Assembly (NCBI GenBank): GCA_965203315.1
Contig: CBDBCE010000004.1
Location: forward strand, 224,001 to 288,000
DNA from: Nitrosopumilus sp.
GTDB lineage: Archaea; Thermoproteota; Nitrososphaeria; Nitrososphaerales; Nitrosopumilaceae
Length of the DNA stretch: 64,000 bases
Reading direction: 5' to 3'
In this document: positions 11,551 through 20,022 of the stretch, piece by piece
Layout of the letters: every line of letters starts with the position of its first letter
Position numbering within the stretch: position 1 is the stretch's first letter
Notes under the pieces: model-generated
Seen by the model: the letters and a program-made list of their open reading frames with translations, nothing else
Database searches by the model: none
Told to the model about the DNA's origin: nothing
Position numbers and translations under genes: made by a program

Positions 11551-12603
11551 CTATCCTGTTCTTACTCTTGGATCAAAGTAGCCGTACAATATATCTGCGA
11601 TAAATACACTGATCAGAAAAAAGACCGTAAGAATGTACGTTGCCCCAATTATTACTGGCAAGTCTAGTACAGATATTGCTTCAAAGTAGAGTCTTCCCAT
11701 TCCTGGCCAATCAAATACTGCTTCTGTGATTATTGCGCCTCCTAGTGAACCTGATAGGCTTAGCGCTAGAATCGTTACTATTGGCGGCGCTGCATTCTTT
11801 AGTGCATGTGTGTAAATTATTCTGCGTTGTTTGATGCCGATCGTTCTCTTTGCAGCAATGTAATCTTCACTCATTATTCCTATCATAAAGTTTCTTACCA
11901 AGTATGCCCACGAACCGAATCCGATCATTACTATTGTGATCAGCGGCAGTGTCATGTGGTATAGTAACGACAGATAGTATTCTGGATCTGATGGTGGAAT
12001 ATCTGGTGTGGCTCTTGCCGGAAATATCTGGTACATAAATGCAAATACAAAGATCATCAACATTCCTATCCACCATACTGGAAAACTAGAACTGATTACG
12101 GCAAACGATGATACCACTCTATCTAGTGCTGAGCCTGCTTTACTACTTGCAAGTGCACCAAGAAATATTCCAATTATCGATATGATTATCGTTGCAGTTG
12201 TAAACAACAGTATGGTTCGTGGCATCTTTTCAAATATGATATCTTTTACATCCGTAGAGCCTGTATCACTTGTAAGAAACGTTGCATGTCCAAAATCTAA
12301 TATCAGTATCTTGTACATGGTGACACCTATACGTTGTGGTGCATACCAAGGTTCATCAAGACCTAGATCGCTTGAGCGTTGATCGATTATAGATTGAACG
12401 AATGTCTCAAACTCTTCAACCGTATTAAAGCTCTCTGCAATGGATGGATCTTGGGCCATCTCGGCACGAACCTGAAATACGATACTCTGTTTTAGAATTG
12501 TATCCATGTTGGAACCGATCAGTGATATTGTGATTAGGAGTGTCGCTATCAACACAACAAACATTGTTGCTGAGCGAGTTGCTACATATCGTTTTATGCC
12601 CAA
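11551..12603 (-). CDS. dppB: Peptide/nickel ABC transporter permease (DppB/OppB-like)
   Basis: DYIAAKRTIG..HALKNA, GAIITEAVFDWPGMG. Confidence 0.9.
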   Translation of the reverse strand: MGIKRYVATRSATMFVVLIATLLITISLIGSNMDTILKQSIVFQVRAEMAQDPSIAESFNTVEEFETFVQSIIDQRSSDLGLDEPWYAPQRIGVTMYKILILDFGHATFLTSDTGSTDVKDIIFEKMPRTILLFTTATIIISIIGIFLGALASSKAGSALDRVVSSFAVISSSFPVWWIGMLMIFVFAFMYQIFPARATPDIPPSDPEYYLSLLYHMTLPLITIVMIGFGSWAYLVRNFMIGIMSEDYIAAKRTIGIKQRRIIYTHALKNAAPPIVTILALSLSGSLGGAIITEAVFDWPGMGRLYFEAISVLDLPVIIGATYILTVFFLISVFIADILYGYFDPRVRTG

Positions 12604-12739
12604 TCTAGATTTGTGTCATTGTGATAATATTAGACAGTTTCTATATTGTTGAATGATCGTGTTTTAGACTCTGTATGGTGCGTAAAGTGTTCATGAATAT
12701 GTCGACTAGGTTGATCTAGTAAACAGTCACTTGTATTGT

Positions 12740-12806
12740 AGACTATATGCGTATTTCTTACATCATACTCACGTTTAAGGTATAATAAAACACAAGTGTA
12801 ATTTCT
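12740..12806. mobile_element. MITE-B left half, truncated by the IS66 end
   Basis: AGACTATATGCGTATTTCTTACATC..GTGTAATTTCT followed directly by GTAAGCG. Confidence 0.8.
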
Positions 12807-13144
12807 GTAAGCGGTTAGCCTGACAACGATCTTGTGGGGTTCTTTTAACTTAATGGGGGGTTAAGATTAAGTTGTAGGTATTTCGAGAAACGCACGGTAT
12901 GCAACTTAAAACAGCAATAATCTACAATGGGTGATCTAACCATTTTTCATGACTTGTAAAATTTTGAGAGAATGTTGCGTGAAAACTATCGACCCCCCCG
13001 TTAAGTTAACCATATGTGAAGAAGTCGATCAGAGTACATTCAGATGATACAAAGCATGCAGGTCGATCCAAGCGATCATCTGTAAAGCGATCTAAAAGAG
13101 GAAATGCAAACAAACAGATTACCCATCCAAAAAGTAAAAACAAG

Positions 13145-14152
13145 ATGATCTATATCGGAATAGATGCACATAAGAGATTTCTGCAAATTGCAGCAATGGA
13201 TCAGGATGGCAAGCGTCTACTCAATGAGCGTGTTGCCACAGATCATGACAGTCTAAAAAAATTCTTTGCGCAGTTTACACCACTCAATACACGTTGTGTG
13301 ATGGAGTCATCGTCAGTATGGTATTGGTTGTATAGATACTTGACAGATGAATTGGGATTTGGTGTAGTGTTATCGAATCCATATCAAACAAAGGCTATTG
13401 CAGAATCAAAGAAAAAGACAGACAAGGTGGATGCATGGACACTGGCAGATCTTTTAAGAGGAAATTATATCTCGCCTTGTTTTGTTCCTAGTGAATACAT
13501 TGTTAAATTGAAACAGTTGGTTCGACATAGAGATATAATTGTAAAAGGAAGAACGCGATACAAGAATCTTATACATGGGATATTACTGCAATATGGAATT
13601 AAAATACCTGGTTCAAGTTTTAGCAAGTCATTTAGAGAGGAATTGAAGAAACTCGAGGATTATAGAATAGATAACTATTTGGACATGATAAACCTCTCTG
13701 ACGAAAAGATTCGACAGTTGGATATTAAAATGCATAAAGAAGTAAAGAGATCACATGATGCGCAGTTGTTAAAGACAATTCCGGGAGTTGGAAACTTTGT
13801 TGCACTTGTTGTAATATCCAGCATTGGAGATGTCAAGAGATTCCCAAATGTACGCAAAATGTGTTCGTATGCAGGAATAGTGCCGTCTGTTCGCAATTCA
13901 GCTGGTAAACAAAATCACGGACGTATAACGAGGAAAGGTGATAAAATACTTAGATGGGCATTGACCGAAGCAGTTCATGTACACATAAAATGTGAACCCC
14001 ATAGCTACATTACAAAATTTTATACTAGAATTAAAAAGAGACGCGTGACAAGCAAGGCAACTGTTGCAACTGCCTCCAAGCTACTCCGATTGATGTACCA
14101 TATGCTTATAGATAGGGATGATTATGTCACACATTGTAGTCGAAATCATTAA
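13145..14152 (+). CDS. IS110-family DEDD recombinase/transposase
   Basis: IGIDAHK, MESS, KTDKVDA (DEDD), IPGVG, SYAGIVPSVRNSAG with catalytic Ser; probable start MIYIGID. Confidence 0.95.
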   Translation: MIYIGIDAHKRFLQIAAMDQDGKRLLNERVATDHDSLKKFFAQFTPLNTRCVMESSSVWYWLYRYLTDELGFGVVLSNPYQTKAIAESKKKTDKVDAWTLADLLRGNYISPCFVPSEYIVKLKQLVRHRDIIVKGRTRYKNLIHGILLQYGIKIPGSSFSKSFREELKKLEDYRIDNYLDMINLSDEKIRQLDIKMHKEVKRSHDAQLLKTIPGVGNFVALVVISSIGDVKRFPNVRKMCSYAGIVPSVRNSAGKQNHGRITRKGDKILRWALTEAVHVHIKCEPHSYITKFYTRIKKRRVTSKATVATASKLLRLMYHMLIDRDDYVTHCSRNH

Positions 14153-14345
14153 CGTACGGGTTCTGTTTGAGATATCACTCGGCAAGTTAAATGTACAGAT
14201 TTTGACGAATGGACGAAGAATGATACTGAGTTAACCACTCGAATGGATATATGTTCGCAGTCCTTTACATGGGAACACATCCCTAGCGTAAGCTATACAC
14301 AATAGTCGTGAATCAGAGTAAATCTTTATAAGCTATTCACATGGA
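14153..14345 (+). ncRNA. Putative bridge/seek RNA in the IS110 3' non-coding region
   Basis: Internal loop with GGGTTCT (14158-14164) and AAGTTAA (14184-14190) matching both halves of the target; second loop with ATGGATA (14243-14249) matching the right end. Confidence 0.7.
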
Positions 14346-14356
14346 TAAAAGAACCC

Positions 14357-14623
14357 AACGAAGCTTGTCGTAAATTCGGAGTTCATTTAGCTAATGCTGC
14401 AGATGATCTATACACGTTTGTGCTATACTATGGTATGGAATACACAAACAACAGAGCAGAGCGCGCTATACGACCAATGGTACTATTCCGCAAGGTAACT
14501 CAACGTATCGTATCTGAGGAGAGTAAAAGACGAGTTGGCAATATCTTTACATGTGTAACAACATGGGAGCAACAAGGTCTCAACGTCTATGATACACTCC
14601 TAAAAGTTGTGCATGAGACCTAA
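14357..14623 (+). pseudogene. IS66 transposase C-terminal fragment
   Basis: DLYTFV..EYTNNRAERAIRPMVLFRKVT motif. Confidence 0.85.
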
Positions 14624-14631
14624 CCTCATAC

Positions 14632-14664
14632 AAAAAATCCATCCAACGTAAATCGAAAAGATCC
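14632..14664. mobile_element. Solo right end of the IS6 parent / MITE-A
   Basis: AAAAAATCCATCCAACGTAAATCGAAAAGATCC, identical to 27392-27424. Confidence 0.85.
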
Positions 14665-14807
14665 GTATGAAACGCAGGAAAAAGCGATCTTTAGTACGTA
14701 ACATGTATAACACAAAGGGTGTAGAAGGGTCTAGAACACCTTCTACTAAGTTGTTAAGTACAACTTGTCGCCAATAGATACTAATAGATGTAGTTATATT
14801 AATTTTT

Positions 14808-14894
14808 GGGCATGTGCCAGAGCACGGTTAAATGGGACTTGTCGCCAACAAGTTGTTAAGTACTTCGTGGGTTCGAATCCCACCATGCCCACCA
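14808..14894 (+). tRNA. Non-canonical class II tRNA-like gene: GCC anticodon, long variable arm, A73, encoded CCA
   Basis: Acceptor GGGCATG/CATGCCC, T-arm GTGGG-TTCGAAT-CCCAC, anticodon stem ACTTG/CAAGT with loop TC-GCC-AA, 13-nt variable region, 3' ACCA. Confidence 0.85.
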
Positions 14895-15062: not shown

Positions 15063-15171
15063 ATTAGTAAAATACATAATCCCCTAATCTGACGATACAT
15101 GCAATGAGTATCTGCATAGAGTTAGAACAATATGTGAAAGAAACTAGTTGCCTACAGATGACGCGATTCGC

Positions 15172-15328
15172 TATCCATTATCCATTATCCATTATCCATT
15201 ATCCATTATCCATTATCCATTATCCATTATCCATTATCCATTATCCATTATCCATTATCCATTATCCATTATCCATTATCCATTATCCATTATCCATTAT
15301 CCATTATCCATTATCCATTATCCATTAT
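15172..15328 (+). repeat. Perfect heptanucleotide tandem repeat (TATCCAT)22
   Basis: 22 full units plus 3 bp, ending 32 bp upstream of the RM gene start. Confidence 0.95.
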
Positions 15329-15360
15329 ATGATGACACAAAGTTTGAGGGGTGCCTCTAG

Positions 15361-18300
15361 ATGGGCACCTCAAAGGCATCAATCTTTGATGATGTGCTAT
15401 GTATAATACGAGCATCTGCGACTAGTACCTCTGATCTCGGTAAACGGTTCGAGAGACTGACCAAAGACTTTTTCAAGATAGATTCAATGTATAGTAGACG
15501 ATTCAGACGCGTCTATCTGTGGTCAGAGTGGCCCAAACGAGACGGCACAGACACGGGAATCGATATTGTGGCAGAACAGTTTGATGGTACACTCTGTGCT
15601 GTACAGTGCAAGTGCTATGATGACTATGCCGGTCTAGACATGAAGTCGGTTGCCAAGTTTCTGGCCAAAGCAAACTCGCTTGGTATAGAGAACAAGATTC
15701 TAGTGTATACAGGCGATACATTTACTAGTCATGCACAAAAGTTATTGCTTGATTCCAAGTGTTCCATAATAGATCAAGAACACTTTCGTAGTTCTAGTAT
15801 CGATTGGAGTGATTATCCAAAACTTGTACGAGTCAAAGATCAAAAACAGCTCAGACCTCATCAGGTATCTGCACTAAAAGACGTGATACATGGATTTCAA
15901 AAATATGATCGTGGTAAACTGATCATGGCGTGTGGTACAGGCAAGACTCTAACAGCACTGCACATTGCAGAAGAACAGGTCGGTACAGGCGGTATCGTAC
16001 TGTATGTTGTACCTTCTATCTCTCTGATACTACAGAGTATGCGAGAGTGGTCCGACAACGGTACCATACAACATAGTTACATGGCTGTATGTTCAGATAA
16101 ATCAACAGGCGAGGATGGTTCCATAACAGAACTAGAGTCACCTGTATCTACAGATCATACTACCTTGCGACCATACATTGTATCACGACCAAAAGATGCA
16201 ATGACGGTAATATTCTCTACGTATCATTCTATAGACGTTATAAAACAAGCTGCAAAAAATATACAGTTTGATCTGATACTATGTGACGAAGCTCATCGTA
16301 CAACAGGAGTAGAAGACAAGTCGTTCTTTACAGCTGTACACAAGGACACAAACATACACGGCAAGAAACGACTCTACATGACTGCTACACCTCGTGTGTA
16401 CAGCGATATTATACAAGCCAAGATGGGCAAGGTAATCTATTCTATGGATGATGAAGAGAGATATGGACCAACATTCCATAGACTGAGTTTTACAGCTGCA
16501 GTACAACAAAAGGTGCTCTCTGACTTTAGAGTCAAGATTGCAATCGTACCAGCTGATAAGATAGACGCACAGTTTCAGCAATCGGTAACAGACGAGGACC
16601 ACTCCATACCGTTAGACGAACGTACGTTACTTGCAGCTGTATGGCACGGCATACAGTATCCAGATGATAATAAAACACCAAAACTGTTACAACGTGTTAT
16701 TGCATTTGCAAATCGTATAGACCGTTCTCAAATGTTTGCAGGCGAGATAACAGACGGAAACAACATTGATCGTAGTTTTGCAAGTATCGTATCACAGTAT
16801 GAAGAAAAAAAGAACACAGGACATAAAGTCCAAGTCAAACACATGGACGGCAAGACTAGGGCAATAGAACGCAGAGACAAACTACGTTGGTTAGACGAGA
16901 GTACTGATGATCCCAACACTTGTAGAATAGTCTCTAATGCCCGATGTCTATCTGAGGGTATAGACGTACCTGCTCTGGACGGTGTAATCTTTTTAAATCC
17001 GCGCAAGTCTCGAGTCGATGTAGTCCAGTCTGTAGGTCGAGTCATGCGTAGATCAGCTGGTAAGAAATATGGCTATGTGATATTGCCGGTTGCGATCCCA
17101 GCTGGTGTAGAATACCACAAGGCACTAGACAACAACAAGACCTTTGCTGTCGTATGGCAGGTACTGAACGCACTACGATCACATGACGAGTCGTTTGGTG
17201 CCGAGATCAACAGTCTGATACTGGACAAAAACACAGAGAATACGAGTCCCACTCCTAGAATCAGTGTATCTGTTTTAGATGATACATTTGTCGAGAGTGA
17301 ACCGATTACAAAGTTCTTTGATCATGTAAAGTCTCAACTGGTCAAAAAGGTAGGAGATGTAGACTATTATGACAAGTATGGTGAAAAGATTGGTTCTGCA
17401 GCTAGTACGATACAGTCTAGAATCGAAAATCTGCTAAAGACAAATGATACCATACAACACGAGGTATCTAAATTTCATAAATCACTACAAGATCTGATAA
17501 ACGATACCATATCTGAATATGATACTGTACAGGCCCTAGCACACCACATGGTACTTGCTCCTGTATTTGATGGGCTATTTACAGGACAGTTCACATCATA
17601 CAATCCGATATCTAGAGCATTTGAAGATATCATACGTACCATGGGACTACGCGAAGAGCTCGAGATCTTGGAGGAATTTTATGATGAGGTACAGCAAGAG
17701 ATCAAGAACATCAATACCGGTACAGCAAGACAAGAGTTCATCAAGAGAATATATGGAAATTTCTTTGAATCTGCTGATAAAAAAGGAACTGAACAACACG
17801 GTATCGTATACACACCTGTACAGATCGTCGATTTTATAATACATAGTGTACAGTATATTCTCAAGAAGGAATTCAACACCGAATTTGCAGACCGACAAGT
17901 CAAAGTTCTAGACCCATTCACAGGCACAGGAACGTTCCTTGCACAACTGATAAACTCGGGATATCTGGGTGAGAACATTTATGAAAAATACAAACACGAC
18001 CTGTACGCAAATGAACTGATCCTACTAGCGTATTATGTTGCAACCGTAAACATCGAGACGGTATATTCCAGTGTACGAAACGGACACAGACATGTTCCGT
18101 TTGACGGTATCAGTTACACAGATACTCTAAAGATAAATCCACTATATCGCACAGACGAGAGACATAGAATACAACTCAAACCATTCACAGGTCAGTTCAA
18201 ACAGGCACACGAACGCGTACATGCACAACGGTGGTCTCATTTACACGTGATAATGGGGAATCCACCTTATTCTGCCAAACAAAGCAACTACAATGATCAA

Positions 18301-20022
18301 AACCAAAACATACAGTATCCTGATCTCGACAAAAGAATTGGAGATACATATCTCAAAAGAGTCAAAGAGATCAACCCAAACATTGGACTAACGACATCAC
18401 TACGAGATTCTTATCTTCGTTCACTCCGTTGGGCATCAGATAGAATCGGCGAATCAGGCATAATTGGCTTTGTAACAAACGCAGGATTTATCAGATCTGA
18501 CGCTGGTGCAGGCGTCCGCGCCTCTCTCCACGAAGAATTCACAGACATTTACTGCTTTGACCTGCGTGGAAATCAACGAACGCAGGGAGAAATATCAAAG
18601 AAAGAAGGAGGAAAAATATTCGGTTCAGGCTCGCGCGCACCAGTCGCCATCACAATACTAGTCAAAAACCCAAACAAGAAAAAACACACCATACATTACA
18701 AAGATATCGGCGACTATCTATCCAGAGAAGAAAAACTAGACACAATATCAAAATACAAATCCATCCAACATATCAAAGACTGGGATACCATCACACCCGA
18801 CAAGCACCACGACTGGGTTGGTCAACGCTCCGACGAGTTTGAACAGTACACAGCAATGGGCAACAAAGAGACCAAGGCTGGTAAAGAGGTCACTGCAATG
18901 TTCAAGTTATATTCGAGTGGTGTAAAAACACATCGCGACGTATGGGTTTACAATTCATCCAAAGAAATTTTATCAAAAAATATGAAACGAACCATTGATT
19001 ACTGCAACAAACAAGATTTGTCAAATCCCATACTTGATCCCAAATTTGTAAAATGGAGTCCAGGACTCACAGATAGATTAAATAAAACTAAACCAAAGTT
19101 TGATAATTCACAAATTCGACTTTTAGCATACAGGCCATTTTTTAAACAATATGTATATTTCGATAAAACATTCATTGAAGTACTATCACTCACTCCAAAA
19201 TTCTTCCCAGACAAAACATCTAAAAATCTAGTAATTATTGTACCATATCGACACGGAGGATTACCCTCTACATTCATAACTAATGTAGTTCCAGATTTAC
19301 AGACCATTCAAAATGATCAATGCTTTCCTTTGTACACATACGAGAATGATAAGAAAACAATCAACATTACAGATTACATATTAACACAATACCAAGATCA
19401 CTACAACGACAAGGCAATAACCAAAGAGGACATCTTTTACTATACGTATGGTCTATTACACCATGAAAAATACAAAAAGAAGTTTGCAAGCAATCTGTCC
19501 AAAGAACTACCAAGAATTCCAATGGCTCCAAACTTTCAAGCATTTGTCACAGCTGGACGCAAACTAGCAGATCTACATCTAAACTACGAGACCTGCAAAA
19601 AGTACCCACTCAAACCTAAAGCCAAATTTGGCAAGCTAGTAAAGATGGCATTCCCCAAAGTAACAAAAAACGGTAAAAAGATTCCAGACAAGACACGACT
19701 ATTCATAAACGGCATCGAAGTCTTTGACCTACCTGAAATAAAATACACAGTAAACGGCAGAACCCCAATCGAATGGATCATAGACCGATACCGCAGAACC
19801 GTAGATAAAGACAGTGGCATAGTAAATGATCCAACTGAAACAATGACTGAAGAAAAGACAATAGCAATGATTCAACGACTCGTACACGTAAGTGTCGAAT
19901 CTGACAAGATCATCAAAGAACTATCCGAAGAAGAGTTTGAACCGAAAGCGTGGAAACCGAAACCCTCTGGTCTAGATAGATACACCAACTCTAAAAACTA
20001 TCAATCAAAATTAAGAGGTTGA
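15361..20022 (+). CDS. Type ISP single-polypeptide restriction-modification enzyme (LlaGI/LlaBIII-like)
   Basis: Mrr-like nuclease (GIDIVA..AVQCK), SF2 helicase (MACGTGKT, DEAH, TATP, QSVGRVMR), N6-adenine MTase (DPFTGTG, GNPPY), C-terminal target-recognition region. Confidence 0.93.
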   Translation: MGTSKASIFDDVLCIIRASATSTSDLGKRFERLTKDFFKIDSMYSRRFRRVYLWSEWPKRDGTDTGIDIVAEQFDGTLCAVQCKCYDDYAGLDMKSVAKFLAKANSLGIENKILVYTGDTFTSHAQKLLLDSKCSIIDQEHFRSSSIDWSDYPKLVRVKDQKQLRPHQVSALKDVIHGFQKYDRGKLIMACGTGKTLTALHIAEEQVGTGGIVLYVVPSISLILQSMREWSDNGTIQHSYMAVCSDKSTGEDGSITELESPVSTDHTTLRPYIVSRPKDAMTVIFSTYHSIDVIKQAAKNIQFDLILCDEAHRTTGVEDKSFFTAVHKDTNIHGKKRLYMTATPRVYSDIIQAKMGKVIYSMDDEERYGPTFHRLSFTAAVQQKVLSDFRVKIAIVPADKIDAQFQQSVTDEDHSIPLDERTLLAAVWHGIQYPDDNKTPKLLQRVIAFANRIDRSQMFAGEITDGNNIDRSFASIVSQYEEKKNTGHKVQVKHMDGKTRAIERRDKLRWLDESTDDPNTCRIVSNARCLSEGIDVPALDGVIFLNPRKSRVDVVQSVGRVMRRSAGKKYGYVILPVAIPAGVEYHKALDNNKTFAVVWQVLNALRSHDESFGAEINSLILDKNTENTSPTPRISVSVLDDTFVESEPITKFFDHVKSQLVKKVGDVDYYDKYGEKIGSAASTIQSRIENLLKTNDTIQHEVSKFHKSLQDLINDTISEYDTVQALAHHMVLAPVFDGLFTGQFTSYNPISRAFEDIIRTMGLREELEILEEFYDEVQQEIKNINTGTARQEFIKRIYGNFFESADKKGTEQHGIVYTPVQIVDFIIHSVQYILKKEFNTEFADRQVKVLDPFTGTGTFLAQLINSGYLGENIYEKYKHDLYANELILLAYYVATVNIETVYSSVRNGHRHVPFDGISYTDTLKINPLYRTDERHRIQLKPFTGQFKQAHERVHAQRWSHLHVIMGNPPYSAKQSNYNDQNQNIQYPDLDKRIGDTYLKRVKEINPNIGLTTSLRDSYLRSLRWASDRIGESGIIGFVTNAGFIRSDAGAGVRASLHEEFTDIYCFDLRGNQRTQGEISKKEGGKIFGSGSRAPVAITILVKNPNKKKHTIHYKDIGDYLSREEKLDTISKYKSIQHIKDWDTITPDKHHDWVGQRSDEFEQYTAMGNKETKAGKEVTAMFKLYSSGVKTHRDVWVYNSSKEILSKNMKRTIDYCNKQDLSNPILDPKFVKWSPGLTDRLNKTKPKFDNSQIRLLAYRPFFKQYVYFDKTFIEVLSLTPKFFPDKTSKNLVIIVPYRHGGLPSTFITNVVPDLQTIQNDQCFPLYTYENDKKTINITDYILTQYQDHYNDKAITKEDIFYYTYGLLHHEKYKKKFASNLSKELPRIPMAPNFQAFVTAGRKLADLHLNYETCKKYPLKPKAKFGKLVKMAFPKVTKNGKKIPDKTRLFINGIEVFDLPEIKYTVNGRTPIEWIIDRYRRTVDKDSGIVNDPTETMTEEKTIAMIQRLVHVSVESDKIIKELSEEEFEPKAWKPKPSGLDRYTNSKNYQSKLRG

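What the first reader, a model, noticed from the sequence alone, without database searches (positions are those of the whole stretch)
12837..14356. Archaeal IS110/IS1111 recombinase whose guide RNA appears programmed against a MITE terminal repeat
Seen: removing 13010-14348 restores a TIR (CCCCCCGTTAAGT-TAA-AAGAACCC) complementary to the left TIR GGGTTCTTTTAACTTAATGGGGGG, which fixes the target as AAGTTAA-A-AGAACCC with a TAA core. Just after the recombinase stop, the sequence folds as GTAC-[GGGTTCT]-stem(GTTTGAG/CTCGGC)-[AAGTTAA]-AT-GTAC: one loop strand is the reverse complement of the right target half and the other is identical to the left half. A second unit (TGAG..CTCG-A-ATGGATA) carries the element's own right-end sequence; its partner donor guide is not clear. 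Established: IS110/IS1111 elements use bridge/seek RNAs with such bipartite loops, and IS4321/IS5075 target transposon IRs. Inference: a compact RNA-guided recombinase (about 335 aa, DEDD and Ser intact) that parasitises a multicopy MITE; the left TIR is an unused second target.
Basis: partly seen in the sequence, partly recalled or inferred. Interest (0 to 1): 0.82.

Follow-up and report, generated by a model that had tools for sequence, protein, structure and literature searches.

The report
Archaeal bridge-RNA insertion sequence targets MITEs
An insertion sequence in an ammonia-oxidising archaeon carries, after its recombinase gene, a two-loop guide RNA gene whose loops spell out the end of another transposon, the place where all three identical copies sit; it is a clear natural example of an already known RNA-guided mechanism.

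Summary
Window 13009-14347 is a 1339-bp IS110-family element of the IS1111 type. It encodes a 335-aa DEDD/Ser recombinase and sits 8 bp from the outer end of a MITE terminal repeat. Its 3' non-coding end encodes two internal-loop modules. In the target loop (14154-14196), the 5' arm GGGTTCT complements the right flank and the 3' arm AAGTTAA equals the left flank plus core.

The genome holds 11 full or near-full copies in four guide variants, and each variant's arms match its own flanks. In the 93%-identical sister lineage, 8 of 11 differences in the 3' end fall in the 17 guide positions. That lineage targets the terminal repeat of an IS66-type element instead. Shuffled guide-target pairings never reached the real score, in the first set (0 of 100,000) or in two unseen genomes (0 of 20,000).

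- The core is TA, not TAA.
- The unclear donor guide is AUGAU (14220-14224), which pairs with the left end ACCAT with one mismatch here and covaries in relatives.

RNA expression and activity are untested. This is a new archaeal member of a known kind (seekRNA/bridge RNA; IS4321-like targeting of transposon ends). Interest is moderate.

The parts
12838..13008 (+). MITE, left and central part (about 179 bp when uninterrupted). Left TIR is 12838-12860; the inner part of the right TIR is 12993-13008, ending in the core TA (13007-13008).
   Evidence: One search gives the sequence. In one search, 18 of 29 BLAST rows are 150 nt or longer elsewhere in the genome. Other copies have 8-bp target duplications (CTAGATCA at C1:864640-864817, GCATGATA at C1:227227-227402). 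The ends resemble those of an IS1595-family element.
12838..12851 (-). Second, unoccupied copy of the 14-nt target AAGTTAAAAGAACC, in the left TIR.
   Evidence: One search lists C5:236838-236851 minus strand, which is window 12838-12851. The equivalent left-TIR site is occupied by copy c2 in another MITE.
13009..14347 (+). IS110-family, IS1111-type insertion sequence, 1339 bp, counted from the first base after the left core TA to the right core TA.
   Evidence: Three copies are 100% identical over 1339 bp, six are 93% identical, one 71% and one 67%. Flanks and boundaries come; empty sites.
13009..13020 (+). Left end: ACCAT (13009-13013), the half of the donor paired by the donor loop's 5' arm, then the subterminal inverted repeat ATGTGAA (13014-13020).
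   Evidence: Counting the core, the extension is TAACCAT (7 nt) on the left and GGA (3 nt) on the right, the asymmetry described for the IS1111 family (PMC11187229, Introduction passage).
13145..14152 (+). Recombinase gene, 335 aa: DEDD RuvC-like domain plus Tnp domain. D7, E54, D93, D96 and S252 sit in conserved motifs.
   Evidence: Pfam. NCBIfam NF033542, IS110 family RNA-guided transposase, 263.5 bits against a cutoff of 140. Alignment to ISCro4 (9t56) and IS621 (8wt6); motif positions.
14154..14196 (+). Target-binding loop module. Outer stem GUAC/GUAC (14154-14157 / 14193-14196). 5' arm 14158-14166, in which GGGUUCU complements the right flank AGAACCC. Hairpin 14167-14182. 3' arm 14183-14192, in which AAGUUAA equals left flank AAGT + core TA + A.
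14211..14256 (+). Donor-binding loop module. Outer stem 14211-14215 / 14252-14256. 5' arm 14216-14226, in which AUGAU (14220-14224) pairs with left end ACCAT with one A.C mismatch. Hairpin 14227-14241. 3' arm 14242-14251, in which AUGGAUA (14243-14249) equals the right end.
   Evidence: Archaeoglobi relatives.
14325..14331 (+). TTTATAA, a TATA-box-like hexamer at a fixed place; TTTATA ends 17 nt before the right end and faces outward. It is a candidate promoter that would read into the left end after circle formation (inference).
   Evidence: 11 of 16 distinct right-end tails carry TT[TA]A[AT][AT] at the same offset. The other 5 carry CTTATAA there (sequences).
14336..14347 (+). Right end: subterminal inverted repeat TTCACAT (14336-14342), GGA, and the core TA (14346-14347).
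   Evidence: The repeat covaries between the two ends in relatives (GAA/TTC, GTC/GAC, GG/CC).
14348..14355 (+). Outer 8 nt of the MITE right TIR (AAAGAACC), cut off from the rest of the MITE by the insertion.
14357..14623 (+). Context: C-terminal fragment of an IS66-family transposase gene, into which the MITE is nested.
   Evidence: Pfam DDE_Tnp_IS66 2.4e-5, 24.3 bits against a cutoff of 23.1.

Best explanation
Window 13009-14347 is an intact, recently active IS1111-type member of the IS110 family in an ammonia-oxidising archaeon.

Inferred from the family: the 335-aa DEDD/Ser recombinase excises the element as a circle joined RE-TA-LE and inserts it at a TA core. It chooses the site through a bridge/seekRNA of about 105 nt encoded just after the stop codon.

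Shown by sequence: the RNA gene has two like modules, each an outer stem, an internal loop and a hairpin.
- In the target loop, the 5' arm pairs with the top strand to the right of the core (AGAACCC). [quoted passage not shown]
- In the donor loop, the 5' arm pairs with the element's left end (ACCAT). [quoted passage not shown]

This lineage's guides spell a 14-nt site, AAGT-TA-AAAGAACC, in the terminal repeat shared by MITEs, an IS1595-family element and an IS6-like element. The element therefore lands 8 bp inside those repeats in one orientation. Sister lineages in the same genome carry other guides and sit at other repeated sites, one of them the terminal repeat of an IS66-type element.

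Inferred, not shown: transcription, RNA-protein binding and recombination.
For: 1. Family. Pfam DEDD_Tnp_IS110 and Transposase_20. NCBIfam IS110 RNA-guided transposase, 263.5 bits against 140. The DEDD and Ser motifs align with ISCro4 and IS621. The protein aligns over 97% of its length with IS4321/IS5075/IS5708 transposases.

2. Targeting in this genome. All 3 of 3 identical copies lie in ...GTTAAGTTA|IS|AAAGAACC, in MITEs that differ from one another. One of the three is in the left TIR. 45 exact empty sites exist against 0.05 expected.

3. Four guide variants, four targets:
- A: GGGTTCT / AAGTTAA.
- B: AAGATAT / GACCTAA, with flanks GACCTA|ATATCTT.
- c10: TCGAATA / AAAAATAA, with flanks AAAAATA|TTTTCGA.
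- c11: TAATTC / TCACTAA, with flanks TCACTA|GAATTAC.
Empty sites were found for c4 and c11.

4. A and B differ at 95 of 1339 positions. In the 196-nt 3' end, 8 of the 11 differences fall in the 17 guide positions (Fisher p = 7.5e-8).

5. Across 15 guide sets (4 own, 11 from Nitrosopumilaceae MAGs), the cognate score was 181 against 99.8 +/- 7.3 for shuffled pairings; 0 of 100,000 shuffles reached it. For 13 of 15 guides the cognate target was the single best.

6. Independent set. 40 RNA-model hits were fetched from two other genomes and 35 were parsed. The right-arm match averaged 6.74 against 4.07 +/- 0.31 (n = 31). The left-arm match averaged 5.17 against 4.00 +/- 0.23 (n = 24). In each case 0 of 20,000 shuffles reached the real value.

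7. Donor loop. The 3' arm ATRGATA equals the right end in 17 of 17 elements (11 with G, 6 with A) and in 4 of 4 Archaeoglobi relatives that have other sequences. The 5' arm is a perfect complement of the first 5 nt of the left end in 9 of 17, with covariation: ACGGT/ACCGT, ATAGT/ACTAT, ATGAT/ATCAT.

8. Structure. The outer stem of the target loop has 5 pairs, 4 of them with compensatory changes. The donor stems are predicted by RNAalifold. Each module alone folds as proposed.

9. The arm order and the 3' location equal those of IS1111-type seekRNAs (PMC11187229, sections 6 and 9; PMC11208160, section 12).
Against: - No RNA evidence. No run on record as RNA holds the element.
- Thermodynamics gives no support. 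z-scores are 0.47 for the 199 nt, -0.18 and 0.86 for the two modules, and 0.58 for the 103 nt. The minimum-energy fold of the joined modules swaps the two hairpins.
- In this genome the donor 5' arm has one mismatch with the left end in every copy.
- In some relatives only one arm matches well. L025-type copies share only GTAA on the left. L027 and L031 have right-arm runs of 3. In the independent set the left-arm signal is modest (5.17 against 4.00).
- The loop anchors were set by hand from the RNA sequences, after the flanks had been seen. The parse was automatic.
- The subterminal repeat is only 7 bp, and the Ser motif reads S-A, not S-G.
Confidence: 0.9

Rival explanations
1. The recombinase recognises the terminal repeats through protein-DNA contacts. 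The guide-like matches in the 3' end are by-products and are not used.
For: The A and B recombinases differ at 22 of 335 residues, so a protein-based change of specificity is not excluded by sequence alone. No RNA has been observed.
Against: Differences between A and B in the 3' end are concentrated in the guide positions (8 of 11). Guides track flanks over about 20 further variants in other genomes. One arm is sense and the other antisense, in the order known for the family (PMC11187229, section 9), where RNA dependence was shown by experiment.
Confidence: 0.04
2. The matches are captured target DNA, for example from imprecise excision or nested insertions, in a non-coding tail that is not a functional RNA gene.
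For: Relatives show tandem partial duplications of the right end whose junctions fall at guide-encoding DNA (L023, L024, L032, L020). So the tail does undergo rearrangements with target-like sequence.
Against: Captured flanks would be contiguous and in one orientation. Here the two halves are split by a conserved hairpin, and the right half is reverse-complemented, at fixed positions in every lineage. The stems show compensatory changes.
Confidence: 0.03
3. The three identical copies reached MITEs by movement or recombination of a MITE::IS composite, not by site-specific insertion.
For: The copies are identical, and MITEs are mobile and repeated.
Against: The three host MITEs differ (96% and 92% identity to the window's MITE). 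One IS sits in the opposite TIR. The insertion separates the outer 8 bp from the rest of the TIR, which should hinder MITE mobility (inference).
Confidence: 0.02

Closest known systems
IS1111-group elements with seekRNA (ISEc11, ISKpn4, ISPa11, ISPst6; Siddiquee et al. 2024, PMC11187229)
   Same: - Non-coding region and guide RNA lie downstream of the transposase gene.
- The top-strand match is 5' of the bottom-strand match.
- Subterminal inverted repeats with 7-nt and 3-nt terminal extensions.
- Transposase of 330-350 aa.
- Natural retargeting between close relatives (ISEc11/ISXne4), as between lineages A and B here.
   Different: - The host is archaeal.
- The subterminal repeat is short (7 bp, against the usual 11-13).
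- The Ser motif is S-A.
- A TATA-like box at a fixed place in the right end may stand in for the bacterial junction promoter (inference).
- Nothing here has been tested at the bench.
[quoted passage not shown]
   Same: Orientation-specific insertion into the terminal repeat of another transposon. The protein aligns over 97% of its length (25% identity, E about 1e-14).
   Different: The targets here are repeats of archaeal MITEs and of IS1595-, IS6- and IS66-type elements. Several lineages in one genome each hit a different transposon end.
IS621 / ISCro4 bridge recombinases (IS110 group; Durrant et al. 2024, PMC11208160; PDB 8wt6, 9t56)
   Same: Two internal loops, one for the target and one for the donor. 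Each has two arms that pair with opposite strands and include a core dinucleotide. DEDD and Ser catalytic motifs.
   Different: In IS621 the RNA is in the left end, upstream of the gene, and the 5' arm pairs with the bottom strand. Here the RNA is in the right end and the arm order is reversed. The core is TA, not CT (the IS621 core is recalled, not checked here). Protein similarity is only partial (E 5e-11 to 9e-13).
ISPpu9 and other REP-targeting IS110-family elements (PMC12288879, abstract in search listing only)
   Same: Insertion into a multicopy repeated sequence, with a small RNA gene downstream of the transposase gene.
   Different: The target there is a REP element in Pseudomonas, not a transposon terminal repeat. 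No intact orphan RNA copies were found here: one decayed relic lies at C1:936472-936653, and an RNA-model match at C5:139565-139678 was not inspected.

Membership tests
IS110 family (DEDD recombinase elements) | [quoted passage not shown] | tested here: met
   8e-29 and 4.1e-24, both above Pfam cutoffs. NCBIfam NF033542, 263.5 bits against 140.
IS110 family (DEDD recombinase elements) | Conserved D, E, D, D and Ser residues | tested here: met
   GID(7), ME(54), TD(93)KVD(96) and NS(252)AG align with the same motifs of ISCro4. That these are the catalytic residues is taken from the literature (PMC11208160 passages, name DEDD and a conserved serine without residue numbers).
IS110 family (DEDD recombinase elements) | Insertion without target duplication, at a short core shared by target and element ends | tested here: met
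   Occupied sites compared with empty sites show only the TA core on both sides.
IS1111 group | Long non-coding region and guide RNA downstream of the transposase gene | tested here: met
   3' non-coding end of 195 nt (14153-14347) against a 5' end of 136 nt. The guide loops lie at 14154-14256.
IS1111 group | Subterminal inverted repeats (11-13 bp in PMC11187229; 7-17 bp in PMC11208160) with asymmetric terminal extensions of 7 and 3 bp | tested here: met
   ATGTGAA/TTCACAT is 7 bp, at the low end of the range. The extensions are TAACCAT (7) and GGA (3) when the left core is counted with the element. The repeat covaries in relatives. Archaeoglobi relatives have about 16 bp.
IS1111 group | The seekRNA segment complementary to the top strand lies 5' of the segment complementary to the bottom strand | tested here: met
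   The 5' arm is the reverse complement of the right flank. The 3' arm equals the left flank plus core, in all four own variants and in the relatives.
IS1111 group | C-terminal motif GL-P----S(t)G | tested here: inconclusive
   The sequence is AGIVPSVRNSAG: G--P----S is kept, but the next residue is A, not G. TA variants are mentioned in PMC11187229 section 6; SA is not.
IS1111 group | Placement of the transposase within the IS1111 clade of a phylogeny | not tested
   There is only indirect support: full-length alignment to IS4321/IS5075/IS5708, against partial alignment to IS621/ISCro4. No tree was built.
seekRNA / bridge RNA system | The RNA is transcribed, binds the recombinase and is required for transposition; a circular intermediate forms | not testable with these tools
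   No RNA run was listed. Contigs cannot show circles.
MITE (the target element) | Short, non-coding, terminal inverted repeats, target duplication, many copies, related autonomous element | tested here: met
   About 179 bp with a 23-nt TIR. 18 of 29 BLAST rows are 150 nt or longer. Other copies have 8-bp duplications. The ends match an IS1595-family element at C1:1326125-1327216. The window's own copy has no matching flanks (tcttgtgg against caacgaag).

The most novel reading that the evidence does not exclude
The most novel reading has two parts.

1. Promoter. Archaeal IS1111-type elements may have replaced the bacterial split -35/-10 junction promoter with a complete, outward-facing TATA-type promoter at a fixed distance from the right end (TTTATAA, 14325-14331). 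Transcription of the recombinase gene and guide RNA would then switch on only when the right end is joined to the left end in a circle or tandem. In the integrated state the promoter would fire out through the 8-bp transposon stub into the neighbouring DNA.

2. Ecology. Within single Nitrosopumilaceae genomes the lineage appears to have radiated into a guild of hyperparasites. Their guides track, base by base, the terminal repeats of unrelated transposon families (IS1595/IS6-type with their MITEs, and IS66-type), splitting those repeats and probably disabling them.
Probability: 0.35. Interest if true: 0.6.

Novelty: new member of a known kind. Interest (0 to 1): 0.45.

Why it matters
- One genome gives a clean natural experiment on guide reprogramming. 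Two lineages 93% identical differ almost only in the guide arms of their RNA and sit in the terminal repeats of two unrelated transposon families. Two further lineages hit other repeated sites.
- It extends detailed guide-target-donor maps of the IS1111 type to archaea: Nitrosopumilaceae, with relatives in Archaeoglobi. Searches found no paper describing such maps for these archaea. Supplementary tables of the 2024 papers, which I could not open, may list archaeal elements.
- It supplies a compact candidate system for testing: a 335-aa protein and an RNA of about 105 nt from a mesophile, with a TA core.
- It explains part of the transposon-in-transposon nesting in IS-rich ammonia-oxidiser genomes.

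Tried and rejected
- Rfam: nothing matched 14153-14348 at E up to 1, so no curated family covers this RNA.
- RNA evidence: no RNA holder was listed.
- DNA contigs of four runs laid on 12500-14800: contigs break at the repeats, so they say nothing about circles or empty MITE sites. One joint, 12776 to 14634, appears in one contig each of X1 and X2.
- Thermodynamic folding: not more stable than shuffles.
- Unanchored longest-common-substring test of the whole 280-nt tail against targets: too noisy (cognate mean 12.2 against 10.4). I replaced it with tests anchored on the loop positions.
- In one search the c10 left arm was anchored one base off, so its score of 2 is an underestimate. I left it as it was.
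- MAFFT misaligned the target loop in alignment A1, so RNAalifold saw only the donor loop. The module-only alignment A2 recovered the outer stem.
- The TAA core was rejected.
- Orphan guide RNA genes: the fragment at C1:936472-936653 is a decayed relic. The RNA-model match at C5:139565-139678 was not inspected.
Supplements of the papers were not seen.
- Papers, and what I saw of each:
  - PMC11187229: outline, sections 6, 9, 10, 13 and 14, and passages.
  - PMC11208160: passages and section 12.
  - 10.1101/2024.06.21.599552: passages only.
  - PMC13343696: passages only.
  - PMC12288879 and the rest: search listing only.
- One search returned mostly papers on arthropod mites.
Full report
**What is there.** Window 12838-14355 is a MITE of about 179 bp with an insert of 1339 bp. 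The MITE starts with GGTTCTTTTAACTTAATGGGGGG (12838-12860). Its right repeat is split into ...CCCCCCCGTTAAGTTA (to 13008) and AAAGAACC (14348-14355). The insert holds one ORF, 13145-14152, of 335 aa. It carries Pfam DEDD_Tnp_IS110 (8e-29) and Transposase_20 (4.1e-24) and matches NCBIfam NF033542, "IS110 family RNA-guided transposase", at 263.5 bits against a cutoff of 140. The motifs GID(7), ME(54), TD(93)KVD(96) and NS(252)AG align with the same motifs of ISCro4. The genome (2.47 Mb, 7 contigs, 39% G+C) has archaeal SSU and LSU rRNA and archaeal AmoA at 387 bits. The nearest relatives of the recombinase, at 45-52% identity, are in Nitrosopumilus and Nitrosopumilaceae MAGs; Archaeoglobi follow at about 40%. 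"Archaeal" is therefore right.

**The decisive test was available inside the genome.** A DNA search found 19 matches. Eleven are full or nearly full copies: three 100% identical, six 93%, one 71% and one 67%.

- The three identical copies all sit in ...GTTAAGTTA|IS|AAAGAACC. Their host MITEs differ from one another (96% and 92% identity to the window's), and one copy is in the left repeat of its MITE.
- The 93% copies sit in GACCTA|IS|ATATC(T/A)T.
- The 71% copy sits in AAAAATA|IS|TTTTCGA.
- The 67% copy sits in TCACTA|IS|GAATTAC.

In the alignment of the 3' ends, the two loop arms change with the flanks: GGGTTCT/AAGTTAA, AAGATAT/GACCTAA, TCGAATA/AAAAATAA and TAATTC/TCACTAA. The surrounding stems are kept or change in a compensatory way (GUAC/GUAC to GUCC/GGAC). 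The A and B lineages differ at 95 of 1339 positions. In the 196-nt 3' end there are 11 differences, and 8 of them lie in the 17 arm positions (Fisher p = 7.5e-8).

**Chance and independent data.** The uninterrupted 14-mer AAGTTAAAAGAACC occurs 45 times against 0.05 expected, always at element ends.

I scored 15 guide sets (4 own, 11 from relatives) with two measures. One is an anchored left-arm match. The other is the longest run between the reverse complement of the right arm and the right flank. The real pairing scored 181. Shuffled pairings gave 99.8 +/- 7.3 with a maximum of 144, and 0 of 100,000 reached 181. For 13 of 15 guides the cognate target was the single best. The anchors in that test were set by hand.

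I therefore built a covariance model and searched 151 genomes of the family. Nineteen have the RNA, in 8 of 27 genera; this genome has 14 matches. From two genomes not seen before I fetched 40 hits and parsed them by rule; 35 parsed. The right arm scored 6.74 against 4.07 +/- 0.31 (n = 31) and the left arm 5.17 against 4.00 +/- 0.23 (n = 24). In each case 0 of 20,000 shuffles reached the real value. That control is conservative, because many of those targets are variants of one repeat. Single-base guide variants there often match single-base target variants, for example ...ACG... with ...ACG... in L073 and L087.

**Anatomy.**
- Target loop: outer stem 14154-14157 / 14193-14196, 5' arm 14158-14166, hairpin 14167-14182, 3' arm 14183-14192.
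- Donor loop: outer stem 14211-14215 / 14252-14256, 5' arm 14216-14226, hairpin 14227-14241, 3' arm 14242-14251.

RNAalifold finds the donor stems and the 5-bp outer stem of the target loop, with compensatory changes in 4 pairs. A rule-based parse finds a fully paired 4-bp outer stem in 13 of 15 elements. Each module folds as proposed on its own, but no more stably than shuffled sequence. The structure therefore rests on covariation, not on energy.

**Donor recognition.**
- The donor 3' arm ATRGATA equals the right end in 17 of 17 elements (11 G, 6 A). The same holds in 4 of 4 Archaeoglobi relatives with ATGGGAG, ATAGGAG or ATGGTAG.
ATGGT pairs with the left end ACCAT. It covaries as ACGGT/ACCGT (L020), ATAGT/ACTAT (L022) and ATGAT/ATCAT (L032), and is perfect in 9 of 17 elements.
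- In this genome every copy has ATGAT against ACCAT or AACAT, one mismatch at the second base of the left end.

**Core and ends.** Three exact empty sites TCAC-TA-GAATTAC, with long matching flanks, exist for the 67% copy. The version with TAA has none. In relatives the base after ...GATA varies. The core is therefore TA; TAA is an accident of this target. Counting the left core with the element, the ends read TAACCAT + ATGTGAA ... TTCACAT + GGA. That is a 7-bp subterminal inverted repeat with extensions of 7 and 3 nt, the asymmetry described for the IS1111 family (PMC11187229, Introduction). The top-strand guide lies 5' of the bottom-strand guide, and the RNA lies after the gene. Both are as in IS1111-type seekRNAs and the reverse of IS621 (PMC11187229 sections 6 and 9; PMC11208160 passages and section 12).

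**What the targets are.** The A target lies in the terminal repeat shared by several elements: the 179-bp MITE, other MITEs of 250-470 bp, a 1092-bp IS1595-family element (152 bits) and a 1469-bp IS6-like element (Pfam DDE_Tnp_IS240 6.9e-14; NCBIfam IS6 110.8 bits, below its cutoff of 125). All have 8-bp duplications where I checked. The B target GACC-TA-ATATC is the terminal repeat (GATATTAGGTC) of a 1.69-kb element with a 534-aa IS66-family transposase. Copies c6 and c4 occupy both ends of one such element at C1:231869-236219. The flanks of the 67% copy are also repeated, with 9 and 7 matches. In lineages A and B the right end of the IS faces the outer end of the host transposon.

**Known or new.** RNA guidance, natural retargeting (ISEc11/ISXne4) and targeting of transposon terminal repeats (IS4321/IS5075) are all in print. 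Archaeal IS110 recombinases are known as proteins: 662 are listed in 10.1101/2024.06.21.599552. My searches found no description of guide-target-donor maps for Nitrosopumilaceae or Archaeoglobi elements, nor of an archaeal promoter in such elements. Supplementary tables that I could not open may list some. This is a new member of a known kind.

**An untested lead.** A TATA-like hexamer sits at a fixed place 17 nt before the right end. By a strict pattern it is present in 11 of 16 distinct right ends, and the other 5 carry CTTATAA there. The 136-nt left end has no such box. This suggests expression after the ends are joined, but it is inference.

**Limits.**
- No RNA data.
- No bench test.
- No phylogeny.
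- Left-arm matches are weak in some relatives.
- Anchors were set by hand.

Noticed in passing
G000 C1:231869-236219 (loci L006, L004): Two B-type copies (c6, c4) in inverted orientation occupy both terminal repeats (GATATTAGGTC) of one 1.69-kb IS66-family element with a 534-aa transposase. Outside lies a 12-bp direct repeat, CAAAAAGTG(G/A)TA. The uninterrupted host site is at C1:159050-159140.
   Followed up: partly
G000 C1:575164-576632 (L070) and C1:1326125-1327216 (L071): An IS6-like element (365-aa transposase with a SWIM-like finger) and an IS1595-family element (280 aa) carry the same outer 22-24 nt of terminal repeat (GGTTCTTTTAACTTATCGGGGG). So do several MITE families. Two transposase families sharing one repeat end is unexplained.
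   Followed up: partly
window 12777-14633: The MITE with its IS is nested in what looks like a degraded IS66-family element: GTAAGCGG at about 12808 and a transposase C-terminal fragment at 14357-14623. The MITE's own flanks do not form a target duplication. One contig each in runs X1 and X2 joins 12776 to 14634, which may be an empty site in the population (short side of 33 nt, so weak).
   Followed up: partly
window 14613-14629: GAGACC-TA-ACCTCAT at the stop codon of the IS66 fragment resembles the B-lineage target GACC-TA-ATATCAT. The left half is exact and the right half partial. It is unoccupied.
   Followed up: no
L023 2745-2911, L024 2745-2855, L032 2731-2782, L020 about 2400-2469: In relatives the right end is followed by a tandem partial repeat of the 3' tail. 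In L023 the repeat starts exactly after the TA of the left-target guide in the RNA gene, and in L024 inside the donor-arm sequence. This suggests that guide-encoding DNA can itself act as a pseudo-target.
   Followed up: partly
L027, L028, L034, L025, L031 (segments): The hairpins of the target loop and the donor loop are nearly or fully identical within one element (for example TGGGATTGCATGCCCG twice in L034). The two modules look like duplicates kept alike. In the window's RNA the shared UGAG/CUCG lets the two hairpins swap partners in the minimum-energy fold.
   Followed up: no
G044 and G019 (L072-L111), L021: Different IS lineages in different genomes hit one repeat, ...ATTATGCATAAGGTCTAA..., at two cores 6 nt apart: ...GTCAA-TA-TGCATAAGG in G044 and L021, and ATTATGCA-TA-AGGTCTAA in G019. 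The repeat was not identified.
   Followed up: no
window 14808-14894: tRNA-Gly(GCC), 87 nt with the anticodon at position 37. It is longer than usual and may hold an intron. Rfam gave a sub-threshold tmRNA-clan match at the same place.
   Followed up: partly
window 15104-15406 and 15361-20022: A run of 21-nt tandem repeats (read as HYPLSII eight to nine times in two frames) lies just upstream of, and overlapping the start of, a 1553-aa ORF whose sequence suggests a helicase-methyltransferase. That reading is by eye; no search was run.
   Followed up: no
window 13040-13130 and relatives: The 5' non-coding end has conserved blocks (TTCAGATGATA, ATGCAAACAAACAGATTACCC) across 45-52%-identical relatives. 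Their role is unknown.
   Followed up: no
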